DNA from: Octopus vulgaris
Taxonomy: Eukaryota
Direction: 5' to 3'
Length of the DNA stretch: 64,000 bases
NCBI GenBank assembly: GCA_951406725.2
Contig: OX597814.1
Location: 21,576,001-21,640,000, forward strand
Below, piece after piece: positions 11,816-40,930 of the stretch; position 1 is the stretch's first letter; every line of letters starts with the position of its first letter. The notes beneath the pieces are model-generated. The model was given only the letters and a program-made list of their open reading frames with translations, had not been told where the DNA came from and ran no database searches. A program made the translations under genes and the position numbers.

Positions 11816-11885
<70 letters not shown>

Positions 11886-11978
11886 AAATATTATTAGAGA
11901 CAAAACCACTATTTTGCAAAACAAACAAGGAAAGACTTAATCAATACATAAAATTTTAATAAATAGTCAAAAAAACCG

Positions 11979-12021
11979 CCACTACAATTGTTTCTTGTCT
12001 TGATCGACAATCTTCAGGTGG
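11979..12021 (-). ncRNA. minimal type I hammerhead ribozyme
   Basis: Minus strand reads CCAC-CUGAAGA-UUGUC(gaucaa)GACAA-GAAA-CAAUUG-UA-GUGG: canonical core, stems I and II, palindromic stem III. Confidence 0.8.
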
Positions 12022-12034
12022 ACTTCCAGGAAAG

Positions 12035-12092
12035 GTGTTCTGTTAATCGTATCAGCTGTGACCCTCGTCGTCGTAACCGACGGAGTGCTCCT
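12035..12092 (+). mobile_element. 3' tail fragment of the SINE family B/chimeric type
   Basis: CGTATCAGCTGTGACCCTCGTCGTCGTAACCGACGGAGTGCTCCT is the reverse complement of 4733-4780. Confidence 0.75.
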
Positions 12093-12095
12093 CTA

Positions 12096-12131
<36 letters not shown>

Positions 12132-12168
12132 CTATTGAATCTTGCAAACCAAATACAAATACGAACTA

Positions 12169-12241
<73 letters not shown>

Positions 12242-12417
12242 ATAAATATTAGGGAATAAATCCAAATTTACAGGGAAAAAAAATCAGATTTAGGATTAAA
12301 TCCAATTTTATAGTAAAATATTATAAAATATTATTAGAGACAAAACCACTATTTTGCAAAACAAACAAGGAAAGACTTAATCAATACATAAAATTTTAAT
12401 AAATAGTCAAAAAACCG

Positions 12418-12460
12418 CCACTACAATTGTTTCTTGTCTTGATCGACAATCTTCAGGTGG
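12418..12460 (-). ncRNA. minimal type I hammerhead ribozyme (second copy)
   Basis: Identical to 11979-12021. Confidence 0.8.
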
Positions 12461-12479
12461 ACTTCCAATAAGTCGAAGT

Positions 12480-12522
12480 CCACCTGAAGATTGTCGATCA
12501 AGACAAGAAACAATTGTAGGGC
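12480..12522 (+). ncRNA. minimal type I hammerhead ribozyme (inverted third copy)
   Basis: CCAC-CTGAAGA-TTGTC..GACAA-GAAA-CAATTG-TA-GGGC, with a 1-nt deletion in the 3' strand of stem I. Confidence 0.7.
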
Positions 12523-12693
12523 GGTTTTTTTGACTATTTATTAAAATTTTATGTATTGATTAAGTCTTTCCTTGTTTGTTTTGCAAAATATGGTTTTGTC
12601 TCTAATAATATTTTATAATATTTTACTATAAAATTGGATTTAATCTAAATCTGATTTTTTCCTTACAAATTTGGATTTATTCCCGAATATTTA

Positions 12694-12730
<37 letters not shown>

Positions 12731-12937
12731 TAGTTCGTATTTGTATTTGGTTTGCAAGATTCAATAGTATATATATATATATAAAATAAATATAAGAGAG
12801 TGGTCACTATATGGCTCACTCTAGCACCAGTTAATCCAAAAGGTTTCAACCACAAAAATACATGTTTCCCATGAAAGTCAGTACGATTGTTAGCTCACAC
12901 GGACAGGGCAAATAAAAAATAACAAAAATACAGATTA

Positions 12938-16123: not shown

Positions 16124-16283
16124 AAGAAGTCATCTTATCATGGCTAACCACATTGGGGAGGGGTGTTACTGTAGCTTTATAGCCCCAAGAGATCGTCGTC
16201 TCTAGCTGGCTTTAGACACAATATCAGTGCCCTTGGAGTATTTGCAAAGGGAGGCCATCCCTTCCTCGCAAGCCTGAGTGATA

Positions 16284-16326
16284 CGCTCGAACTAGTTTCG
16301 CGATTTTTGTCCCTCGTCAACGGGCG
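16284..16326 (-). ncRNA. hammerhead-like motif, left arm (stem II mismatch)
   Basis: Reverse complement of 16394-16436 with UCGC in place of UCCC. Confidence 0.5.
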
Positions 16327-16393
16327 GTAACCACCAGGTCGCGATGAAAGTGAAGGCTGCTTTGCAAATATATATAAGTTACCTGGTGGTTAC

Positions 16394-16436
16394 CGCCCGT
16401 TGACGAGGGACAAAAATCCCGAAACTAGTTCGAGCG
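16394..16436 (+). ncRNA. minimal hammerhead-like motif, U3 core variant
   Basis: CGCCCG-UUGACGA-GGGA(caaaaa)UCCC-GAAA-CUAG-UU-CGAGCG. Confidence 0.65.
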
Positions 16437-16652
16437 TATCACTCAGGCTTGCGAGGAAGGGATGGCCTCCCTTTGCAAATACTCCAAGGGCACTGATATT
16501 GTGTCTAAAGCCAGCTAGAGACGACGATCTCTTGGGGCTATAAAGCTACAGTAACACCCCTCCCCAATGTGGTTAGCCATGATAAGATGGCTTCTTTACT
16601 TTACATTATCGAGCGATTACTGTTTCAATCTCATTCTGAGATTTAATTATGC

Positions 16653-37995: not shown

Positions 37996-38368
37996 TGTAT
38001 GTATGTATGTATGTATGTATGTATGTATGTATGTATGTATGAATGCCTGCAAATATACACGTAATTATGTATTTATTTTACATACACACATCTCAATGAA
38101 GCATAATTGAATCTACTGTTATTGTGATTCTGTAAAACCTAATACATATTTATATTCTGATATATATATACTACAATACATTGAATACATTTATACACTA
38201 CAATACATTGAAGCATAGGGTACCATTGTATCTCGCATATGATGTGTTCATATTTAAGATAGCGTGCATCCACTCATAGAATACACATGCACGCACAGGC
38301 ACACACACACGTAAACATTCATACATATACATAATATATTTATCTACATGTGTGTATATATTTTACGT

Positions 38369-38407
<39 letters not shown>

Positions 38408-38527
38408 CATATATATAATAGGAATACTAGTAGTAGTAGTAGTAGTGGTAATGGTGATAATAATAATAGGAAGGCTGATGTTGGAAACAGTAACGATAAT
38501 GAAGATAATCCTAGAGAGACCATTGAC

Positions 38528-40930
38528 ATGTATACCCATCCCTTTGACACTCAATTCTTCAACGTATGCGACAAAACTTACTGCATGAACCGAATTTATC
38601 CAACAACATTACCCTTCAACAAAAGGGTATACATCCCAAGACGTACTAATGACCACATGGAAGCACAGTTCACTATAGCTAGGACCAAACTTAGACAGAT
38701 TTTAGGTTTATACATTAAGAGACAGAGACAGAATAAGACAGATGCCCAACAACTAGGGATTAAACCTGCATGTGGCCTACAGAAGCTCATTCAGCGCACG
38801 AGGAACGGAGAGGTGATATGCCTTCCCACGGATAAGTCAGGCAGGATGTCAATAGACAGCTTACCGAACTACATCCAGGCAATGCAACCTCATATCGCCA
38901 ATACAAAAGTAACAACTGTACAGGCGCATGAGGAGAGAGAAAAGGTCCTCAATGCCCACATGATGATGTGGACAATTGTTCTGGGACCTCAGAAACGTAC
39001 TGCAAAGAATTTCCAAGCCTGGAACAATGATATCCCGGCACTGTATGGACTTCGCAAGGACCATAAAGGTTTTACTGACCCTATAGCAGGACCACCAACA
39101 AGACCAGTCTGTGGAGCGAATATCGCTAGCAATTACAGAATCTCCTACTTCCTCTCAATGATCATACGCCCTATAATCAGGATGTCACCTGATGTATGTG
39201 ACAGCACAGAAGATCTCCTAAGCAGGATCAGTGACTGTAACAAAACTTGTGACTTGACAGGATGTATAGTAGGTAGCATGGATGTGGTATCCCTATACCC
39301 ATCGATTGACGTAGATTTTGCAGTGGAGAAGTGCGTGGAGATGATCAACGAGAGCCAGGTGGAGTTCTGTAATGTCGACACAGAAGAACTGGGCCTCCTA
39401 CTTAGACTGACATATAATAGTGAATACTTAGATAAACATAATCTTAGTAGTTTCTGCCCCAGTAGATGTTTAAGAGGTAGACCGCCTACAATTACTTCTA
39501 TGACTAGGAAGACACATATAGAAAGATGGCGCGGATGGACCAGAGCCATACGGAGCCCCGCAAATGTCCATCAGGTAAAGAAAATGATCGCACATGCACT
39601 ACGAGCTAGTATAAGAGTTACCCTAAAAGGCCACACATTTAAATTTAATAATAAAATATATGCCCAGGACGAGGGGGCAGCCATCGGTGTTAGTATCGCT
39701 GGTGATGTGGCCAACCTCTTCATGGTATGGTGGGACAGAAGGCTTAAAGAATGCCTACTGCAGAAATCCATACTCGTAAACATGTACTCTCGCTATGTTG
39801 ATGATATCAATATAGTAGTAAAGGCACCCCCACAAGAGAGTACGGTTGATATAGTAATAGAAACTAATACTATGGAGAGCATCCAGCAAATAGCTAACTC
39901 CATCCACCAGAGTATTAAGGTCACAATAGACTACCCCACTAAACACCCCAACCATAGACTACCAGTACTAGACACTGAACTCTGGCTAGAAATTGTGAAA
40001 AATAAAACCCAAATCCTTCATTCATACTATGCAAAACCTATGGCCTCAAAATACCTGATCCACCGGAACTCAGCCATTGCGGGCAATGCCAAATTCAATA
40101 TTTTGATGGCAGACCTCGTCAGAATAATGAGAAATGTGTCACGCATGTGCGAGCCTACAGAATTAAAGAGACACATACAGTATTTCATTCACCGCATGCA
40201 GTTCTCAGGTTACAGCCATAAAGAAAGGATCAGAGTATACAAAGGAGCCATGAAGAAATTTGATAATATATTATGTAATGATAGGAATGGGATTTGCCCA
40301 CTCTATAGGAACAAGTCATGGAACACTATAGAAAGGACAAAAAAGAAAATAAGGAAGGCCAACTCTTGGTATGATAGCCATAAATACCAGAGTGTCATGT
40401 TCGTTGACACCACCCCTGGAGGTGAACTAGCGTACCGCTTTAGAAGGACCCTAGATAAACTTAAACTAAGAATTAAGGTTGTTGAAAAGCCAGGCAACCC
40501 TATCAGATCTATAATTGGTAGAACCTATCCTTTTAGTAGAACTCTCTGTACGGATAACTATTGCACTGTATGTAGATTTAGCCCACAAACGAACTGTAAA
40601 GCCAGAAATGTGGTCTATAGTATAAGATGTATAGAGGGACGATGCAGTAACAAGACAGTAACATACGTAGGGGAAACTGCAAGAAGCATTGGTGAGCGGG
40701 TGAATGAACATTGGAGACAACTCAAGGAAGGTAAAAGCTCATCGATTCTGTACCAACACGCCGAACAAGAACACGGGGGATCAATCAATAACATAGAGAT
40801 TAAGATATTGTCCACACATAGAACAGATGCAACAATTAGACAAATTACAGAAGCTACACATATAATAGAAAATAAACCTAGCCTGAATAGAAAACTAGAA
40901 TGGAGCAATAGCGCACACCACAACATATGA
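38528..40930 (+). CDS. PLE polyprotein: reverse transcriptase + Cys-rich linker + GIY-YIG endonuclease (800 aa from the first ATG inside the element; frame open from 38348)
   Basis: [63 protein letters not shown]...C...[22 protein letters not shown] and terminal LN. Confidence 0.95.

What the first reader, a model, noticed from the sequence alone, without database searches (positions are those of the whole stretch)
11885..12775. Triple canonical HHR pLTR cluster (two direct copies, one inverted)
Seen: identical minimal HHRs at 11979 and 12418 (minus strand, 439 bp apart) and an inverted copy at 12480 across a 9-nt spacer. Known: tandem minimal HHRs can form a dimeric stem III, here through the CAAUUG palindrome. 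Inference: a minus-strand transcript could self-excise a ~440-nt monomer, retrozyme-like, that includes a SINE tail fragment and microsatellites.
Basis: partly seen in the sequence, partly recalled or inferred. Interest (0 to 1): 0.7.

Follow-up and report, generated by a model that had tools for sequence, protein, structure and literature searches.

The report
Spliced Penelope fragments, not a retrozyme
The three hammerhead-ribozyme motifs are real, but they are likely short dead-end copies of the start of a young jumping gene's spliced RNA, pasted in around a bit of host DNA, and the family's hundreds of such copies likely show why these elements keep their intron.

Summary
Observation mostly confirmed: two identical type I hammerheads (HHR) on the minus strand, 439 bp apart, plus an inverted third whose stem I is broken by a 1-nt deletion. 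They are canonical (helix III present), not 'minimal'. The repeat is the pLTR of a young Hydra-clade Penelope-like element: 1,327 HHR cores genome-wide, and a full 6.3-kb unit with an 838-aa RT/GIY-YIG ORF. The 439-nt 'monomer' occurs once, lacks the element's start site, and the inverted arm would sequester one HHR: not a retrozyme. The '9-nt spacer' is a splice junction: the element has a ~1.85-kb GT-AG intron ending 9 nt before the HHR. 369 genomic junctions are spliced, 296 unspliced. 84 of 86 sampled spliced arms stop at or inside an Inr-like start; 22 of 23 unspliced donors run past it. Likely, sense RNA is the template, its 5' intron copy is spliced and its 3' copy kept. Copies end at +149 or +239; all 32 two-arm loci have one of each. 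Unusual here: a mirror copy of 41 nt of flank. The scan noted a spliced-PLE fold-back before in another genome (e1-9506236). No RNA data obtained.

The parts
11882..12028 (-). Copy 1: pLTR fragment, exon-2 positions +3 to +149 ('short' 3' end), 3' end in (TA)9
   Evidence: left edge blurred by (TA)n
11979..12021 (-). HHR 1, canonical type I (stem I 4 bp, CUGAAGA, stem II 5 bp, GAAA, palindromic stem III); predicted cut after 11983
12029..12099 (+).
   Evidence: related copies at window 4793-4734 and 6460-6404; 1 genomic match for this variant
12132..12172 (.). 41-nt non-element DNA between (TA)14 and (TA)33, likely target-site DNA
   Evidence: no match over 10 nt to the element; 3 genomic matches, 2 of them here
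12232..12474 (-). Copy 2: pLTR fragment from spliced RNA, last 5 nt of exon 1 plus exon 2 to +239 ('long' 3' end), 3' end in (TA)33
12418..12460 (-). HHR 2, identical to HHR 1; predicted cut after 12422
12466..12474 (-). The '9-nt spacer': exon 1/exon 2 splice junction (between 12470 and 12469)
   Evidence: same junction, longer form, 335 times in the genome; donor and acceptor in the full element
12475..12712 (+). Copy 3: inverted pLTR fragment, +5 to +239, with small deletions; HHR at 12480-12522 with broken stem I
12727..12767 (.). Mirror copy of the 41-nt piece, followed by (TA)7 and the right flank
   Evidence: no such mirrored flank in 88 other loci

Best explanation
The locus holds three short fragments of a young Hydra-clade Penelope-like element and is likely a dead-end, complex insertion made from the 5' end of the element's spliced sense RNA, not a self-excising RNA unit. 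Shown: the full element is pLTR(HHR)-ORF-3.5 kb-pLTR(HHR); it has an Inr-like start, a 23-nt exon 1 and a GT-AG intron of about 1.85 kb that ends 9 nt before HHR stem I; genomic copies end at +149 or +239 of exon 2 in (TA)n; two-arm insertions carry one end of each kind; spliced copies stop at the start site while unspliced ones run past it. Inferred mechanism: the RT/GIY-YIG protein nicks (TA)n tracts and starts cDNA inside the uncut RNA at two AT-rich sites (+149, +239). If it starts in the 5' pLTR of the transcript it makes 150-270-nt spliced copies; if it starts in the 3' pLTR it makes long copies that keep the intron, because that copy of the intron is rarely spliced. Here the +149 cDNA (copy 1) and the +239 cDNA (copy 2) were likely primed at two (TA)n tracts about 300 bp apart on the same strand, trapping host DNA between them, and copy 3 likely arose by DNA-templated fold-back of copy 2 that ran on through 41 nt of flank before rejoining the chromosome at (TA)n. 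The HHR is predicted to work as a dimer in the 6.3-kb element RNA and is a passenger here.
For: Family and autonomous element. Hydra motifs. Junction counts 335 + 34 spliced (two donors 4 nt apart, one acceptor) and 296 unspliced; in 87 HHR copies from contig C1: 40 + 4 spliced, 36 unspliced, 7 other. 84 of 86 spliced arms stop within the 23-nt exon 1, 11 of them exactly at the Inr A; only 5 genomic matches (4 loci) of the spliced junction reach 6 nt or more upstream against 102 for the unspliced donor; 22 of 23 unspliced donors in 15 long loci have upstream element sequence. 3' ends: 85 of 87 fall at +142 to +154 or +232 to +239; 24 of 24 and 8 of 8 two-arm loci have one of each. Parallels for extra pieces between arms: L057 and L118 (triples; L118 has the same order as the window), L085 (about 130 bp of local DNA copied between the arms). 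110 of 117 arms begin upstream of HHR stem I or at its first base, so they read through the cut site. Two adjacent internal RT start sites and uncut RNA as main template were shown in vitro for another PLE (PMC11167929).
Against: The empty site was not found, so the order of events and the native orientation of the 41-nt piece are open; copies 1 and 3 could equally be the normal 149/239 pair with copy 2 plus flank as filler. Copy 1 could be an independent insertion (roughly 0.3 such neighbours expected genome-wide by my rough estimate from about 900 loci in 2.8 Gb). A mirrored flank was seen in 0 of 88 other loci, so that step has no direct parallel. No RNA read shows the splice or the start site; the intron is inferred from DNA copies. 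Arms are not independent events (two per locus). 2 of 117 arms begin exactly at the cut site (L100, L110), so some templates may be cut. Pfam and PDB searches did not name the ORF; RT and EN are assigned by motifs.
Confidence: 0.8

Rival explanations
1. Nascent retrozyme: the two direct HHRs dimerise and release a 439-nt RNA that may circularise and be copied by the PLE protein.
For: Two intact, identical HHRs in direct orientation; dimer fold only 6.8 kcal/mol above the ensemble for a transcript starting at 12474; size and low GC (25%) near the range given for animal retrozymes (PMC7229834); the monomer keeps the +149 and +239 sites.
Against: Single copy; only about 1.3 units; no start site; the inverted arm blocks HHR 2 in read-through RNA; junctions lie about 45 nt upstream of the cut site, at the RNA's 5' end, not at the cut.
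Confidence: 0.05
2. Trans-mobilised cassette: host DNA framed by two direct pLTRs and one inverted pLTR was moved here from a donor locus, as described for Adineta vaga.
For: [quoted passage not shown]
Against: No donor: the captured repeat variant is unique in this assembly and the one other 41-nt match has neither the element nor that repeat beside it; it does not explain the mirrored 41 nt.
Confidence: 0.06
3. Two independent ordinary insertions (a solo +149 copy and a fold-back pair), or a partly mis-assembled hairpin.
For: Solo copies are common (10 spliced solos without an inverted arm among 36 single-HHR loci); (TA)n tracts cluster; copy 3 has deletion-type differences.
Against: Copies 1 and 2 are the same subfamily and supply exactly the 149/239 complement; L118 shows the same order of parts; the mirror ends after about 310 bp in unrelated flank, unlike a read-level fold-back artefact.
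Confidence: 0.09

Closest known systems
Hydra clade of C-terminal EN+ Penelope-like elements (Craig et al. 2021, PMC8557442; abstract, passages, section 11 and part 2 of supplementary file 1 read)
   Same: WK, DKT, CxCX5C linker, CxxC and CxH around E and N, C-terminal GIY-YIG-like EN, (TA)n targets, canonical HHR with CUGAAGAU core and palindromic stem III, tandem and inverted pLTRs.
   Different: Unit is 6.3 kb against 'generally <3 kb'; about 1.85-kb intron and 3.5-kb region after the ORF; Asn-rich linker; HHR differs from that listed for Hydra-1_Obim, so it is another family; the tail is 90 nt, not 30-40.
Penelope of Drosophila virilis (PMC2377424 passages; PMC4209133 parts 1-2 of 4)
   Same: Start site in the pLTR, 5'-UTR intron whose 3' end abuts HHR helix I, spliced and unspliced RNA forms, partial tandems with inverted ends.
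   Different: Intron is 75 bp there; the passages read describe intron retention in genomic copies and do not mention spliced genomic copies, which here are more than half of the informative junctions.
[quoted passage not shown]
   Same: Same three-pLTR layout with non-element DNA between the direct copies; Inr-like TCACT; Asn-rich stretch between RT and EN.
   Different: No donor locus or TSD found here; flank mirrored in the inverted arm; that paper proposes an antisense template to explain intron retention, which spliced copies argue against for this family.
PAc (Poseidon) of Anolis in vitro (PMC11167929, parts 1-2 of 4)
   Same: Two internal RT start sites that define the tail; AT-rich target; uncut RNA as main template.
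   Different: Start sites there lie in an AC-rich stem-loop inside the ORF; here the two ends are AT-rich, 90 nt apart, and upstream of the ATG at +287.
Animal non-LTR retrozymes (PMC7229834 passages; bioRxiv 10.64898/2026.07.22.740005 part 1 of 5)
   Same: Type I HHRs a few hundred nt apart in direct orientation; PLE origin of the HHR region.
   Different: No repeated monomer, no family, under two units, no expression evidence.

Membership tests
EN+ Penelope-like element | Single ORF with RT and C-terminal GIY-YIG endonuclease | tested here: met
   838-aa ORF at L031; RT motifs (DIDNYY, YRDD) and YIGST conserved in 12 homologues aligned; Pfam and PDB gave no named hit
EN+ Penelope-like element | pLTRs with HHR in tandem or inverted arrangement, with a tail | tested here: met
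   HHRs 6,340 bp apart around the ORF plus long inverted arm; 149/239 ends
Hydra clade | RWK present, GxKF/Y absent, DKT | tested here: met
   KWK (RWK or RWR in most homologues), no GxK[FY], DKT at 128
Hydra clade | CxCX5C linker; CxxC and CxH around conserved E and N | tested here: met
   CTCRDKSNC at 689, CYLC at 795, CRH at 824
Hydra clade | (TA)n target | tested here: met
   nearly all of 87 copies end in (TA)n
Hydra clade | Placement in an RT phylogeny with named Hydra proteins | not tested
Canonical type I HHR | CUGANGA, GAAA, NUH, stems I-III | tested here: met
   copies 1 and 2 pass; copy 3 fails at stem I
Canonical type I HHR | Self-cleavage | not testable with these tools
   indirect hint only: 2 of 117 arms begin at the predicted cut
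min-HHR (Cervera and de la Pena 2014) | No helix III / loop 3 | tested here: not met
   6 nt palindrome lies between GAAA and UA
Non-LTR retrozyme | Tandem repeat of a unit with an HHR in at least two consecutive units, dispersed as a family | tested here: not met
   unit occurs once; about 1.3 units
Non-LTR retrozyme | Expressed as monomeric linear or circular RNA | not testable with these tools
   no raw RNA reads were available; no RNA run could be laid

The most novel reading that the evidence does not exclude
This family is a genomic record that settles how Penelope-like elements keep their intron: the template is sense RNA (not antisense); the intron copy at the 5' end is spliced and yields hundreds of 150-270-nt dead-end inserts, while the copy in the 3' pLTR escapes splicing and regenerates intron and promoter; one RNP lays two cDNAs with fixed, different start sites (+149, +239) on the two target ends.
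Probability: 0.65. Interest if true: 0.62.

Novelty: new member of a known kind. Interest (0 to 1): 0.42.

Why it matters
The locus itself is a dead insertion of a known type. Its value is the family it leads to. Intron retention and the origin of tandem and inverted pLTRs are stated as open in PMC3846280 and PMC8557442. Here two splice donors, a start-site boundary and two fixed 3' ends mark every copy, so template polarity, the pairing of arms and the rare use of cut RNA can be counted over more than 1,300 near-identical copies, and a young intact ORF is at hand for an in vitro test. It also warns that a pair of direct HHRs a few hundred bases apart need not be a retrozyme.

Tried and rejected
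Rfam scan: no hit on the three motifs; top hits were microsatellite matches to miRNA models. Single-strand folding of the isolated motifs does not give the HHR fold and is no better than shuffles (z -0.03 to -0.65); usual for short-stem HHRs, so used neither for nor against. Pfam on the ORF and 4 homologues and a PDB profile search: nothing above cut-off. Donor locus for the 41-nt piece: L040 has no element beside it. Empty allele from public contigs: contigs break at the repeats, none spans the locus. Expression: no RNA holder listed; no RNA run was laid, so transcription, splicing and cleavage in vivo stay open. One search had an off-by-one error in the junction classes (corrected; its 3'-end table is shifted by 1). 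The pattern could not match the main spliced junction, so it counts unspliced donors only; supplies the spliced count. Whether arms in tight hairpins carry more deletions: 0.36 per arm in close pairs, 0.06 in far pairs, 0.92 in singles: inconclusive. Paper searches for spliced genomic PLE copies and for octopus PLE hammerheads listed none that describes this, but subscription papers (Arkhipova 2003, Evgen'ev and Arkhipova 2005, recalled) are not in the library and supplements other than one of PMC8557442 were not read.

Full report
1. What is in the window. A strict two-strand scan of the 64 kb passed two type I hammerheads, both on the minus strand, CUGAAGA at 12456 and 12017. Each has a 4-bp stem I, a 5-bp stem II, GAAA, the palindrome CAAUUG and a GUA cut triplet; H17 is at 12422 and 11983, 439 nt apart. 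A third motif on the plus strand at 12480 lacks one base in the 3' strand of stem I and failed the scan; copy 3 also has other small deletions and substitutions. By the definitions in PMC4209133 (parts 1-2 of 4 read) these are canonical motifs with a palindromic helix III, not min-HHRs. The inverted repeat is about 310 bp and takes in (TA)n tracts and 41 nt that are not part of the element.

2. The family. A 223-nt query gave 904 candidates in the own genome, 40 scored, all at 99-100%; the HHR core has 1,327 matches at up to one mismatch. One locus holds a full unit: pLTR(HHR), an 838-aa ORF starting 286 nt after the start of exon 2, 3.5 kb, and a second pLTR(HHR) 6,340 bp on, with a long inverted arm upstream. 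The protein has RT motifs, DKT, a CxCX5C linker, YIGST, and CxxC and CxH flanking E and N, conserved in 12 aligned homologues of the 40 found. These are the marks given for the Hydra clade (PMC8557442 section 11), and the HHR follows the pattern of the Hydra HHR table in that paper's supplement while differing from Hydra-1_Obim. No tree with named references was made.

3. The 'spacer' is a splice junction. In the full element a 23-nt stretch beginning at an Inr-like TCACTTC (motif name recalled; an Inr-like TCACT is noted in PMC3846280) is followed by GTAAGT, and 1,853 nt later a T-rich tract ends in AG, 9 nt before HHR stem I (1,817-2,360 nt in 8 other arms). Many short copies join that 23-nt stretch directly to the base after AG. 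Exact genomic counts: 335 for the main donor, 34 for a second donor 4 nt downstream, 296 for the unspliced acceptor (a subfamily with one G less is not counted there). In all 87 HHR copies sampled from contig C1: 40, 4, 36 and 7 other. Two donors joined to one acceptor at GT-AG ends are hard to explain by DNA deletion. Copy 2 in the window carries the main junction with 5 nt of exon 1. D. virilis Penelope has the same layout, an intron ending at helix I (PMC4209133), but 75 bp long (PMC2377424, passages).

4. Spliced copies stop at the start site. Of 86 spliced arms in 108 loci, 84 keep 23 nt or less of exon 1 and 11 keep exactly 23; 2 (one locus) go further. Genome-wide only 5 matches at 4 loci reach 6 nt or more upstream, by about 25-280 nt. 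Unspliced donors behave the other way: 102 matches with upstream sequence and 22 of 23 in 15 long loci chosen because they hold the intron. Inference: the template is sense RNA; its 5' intron copy is spliced, its 3' copy mostly is not. This bears on the antisense-template idea offered for intron retention in PMC3846280 (passages). Arms come in pairs, so counts overstate the number of events; no RNA read confirms the splice.

5. Two fixed 3' ends. 85 of 87 copies end near +149 or +239 of exon 2, in (TA)n. All 24 two-arm loci of that sample and 8 of 8 in a second set have one end of each kind. This matches two internal RT start sites as shown in vitro for the Anolis element (PMC11167929, parts 1-2 of 4). 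110 of 117 arms start at or upstream of stem I and so read through the cut site; 7 start inside the motif, 2 of them exactly at the predicted cut (L110, and L100 where the copy continues into the ORF). That is a hint, no more, that some RNA is cut.

6. This locus. Copy 1 ends at +149, copies 2 and 3 at +239. The junction between copy 1 and the repeat fragment, and that fragment's variant, are unique; the 41-nt piece has one other match, without the element. So the 439-nt unit is not a family, and the DNA between copies 1 and 2 is likely native. No mirrored flank was seen in 88 other loci, but extra pieces between arms recur: L057 and L118 are triples, L118 in the same order as here, and L085 has about 130 bp of nearby DNA copied between its arms. 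I favour one complex event: +149 and +239 cDNAs primed at two neighbouring (TA)n tracts, then fold-back copying of copy 2 through 41 nt of flank. Copy 2 is closer to the reference and keeps more 5' sequence, which makes it the likelier primary strand. The alternative, copies 1 and 3 as the normal pair with copy 2 as filler, cannot be excluded without the empty allele, which public contigs did not show.

7. Could it still release a 439-nt RNA? The palindrome gives an 8-bp intermolecular stem III, kept by G-U pairs in the CGAUUG variant that makes up about half of the copies. For RNA starting at 12474 the dimer fold is 6.8 kcal/mol above the ensemble, two monomers 11.7 (secondary structure only). 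But copy 2 lacks the start site, and RNA entering from the right first makes the inverted arm, which pairs with copy 2 over 305 bp and puts the dimer fold 247 kcal/mol out of reach. No RNA run was on record among 21 holders.

8. Comparison and novelty. Two direct plus one inverted pLTR around host DNA is described (PMC3846280), as are HHR pairs on opposite strands 100-700 bp apart (PMC4209133). The element is a new member of the Hydra clade. The retrozyme criteria (PMC7229834 passages; bioRxiv 10.64898/2026.07.22.740005 part 1 of 5) are not met. Mass insertion of spliced 5' ends was not found in my paper searches, which do not cover subscription journals; the scan's own notes hold the same idea for another genome (e1-9506236), which I saw after reaching it (note). 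Verdict: ordinary as a locus, useful as an entry to a family that makes an open mechanistic question countable. Interest 0.42.

Noticed in passing
window 16135-16600: A second, unrelated inverted pair of HHR-bearing repeats in (TA)n (Rfam HH9 hits at 16268-16338 minus and 16382-16452 plus, below gathering score). The core reads UUGACGA (U3 with G8); all 31 genomic matches to a pattern allowing C or U have U, so this is a family-wide core variant.
   Followed up: partly
window 38315-40930 (+): 871-codon open frame with RT-like and C-terminal GIY-YIG-like motifs by eye: likely another, near-intact PLE family; no library search done.
   Followed up: no
L116 (G000:C2:52884600-52886100): Both arms begin with the same roughly 50 nt of non-element sequence joined exactly to exon 2 start, ends 149 and 239: possibly a host exon spliced to the element's acceptor and then retrocopied.
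   Followed up: partly
L017:1070-1750: Three head-to-tail 107-109-bp units, each exon 1 (second donor) plus the whole HHR, separated by short inverted exon-1 pieces: a better test case for dimeric cleavage than the window locus.
   Followed up: no
L100:1047 onward; L110: Copies whose 5' end is exactly the predicted HHR cut; in L100 the copy continues into the ORF and the locus ends in a 3' pLTR.
   Followed up: partly
L037, L079, L082: Variants with two copies of the Inr/exon 1/donor block about 1.2 kb apart and a longer intron.
   Followed up: no
L040:1501-1540 and window 12132-12172: The same 35-41-nt piece sits between (TA)n tracts at two unlinked places with 1 mismatch; origin unexplained.
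   Followed up: partly
L031 ORF residues about 500-600: Asn-rich stretch (25 and 20 Asn per 50 residues) between RT and EN, like the N-rich inserts described for Adineta PLEs.
   Followed up: no
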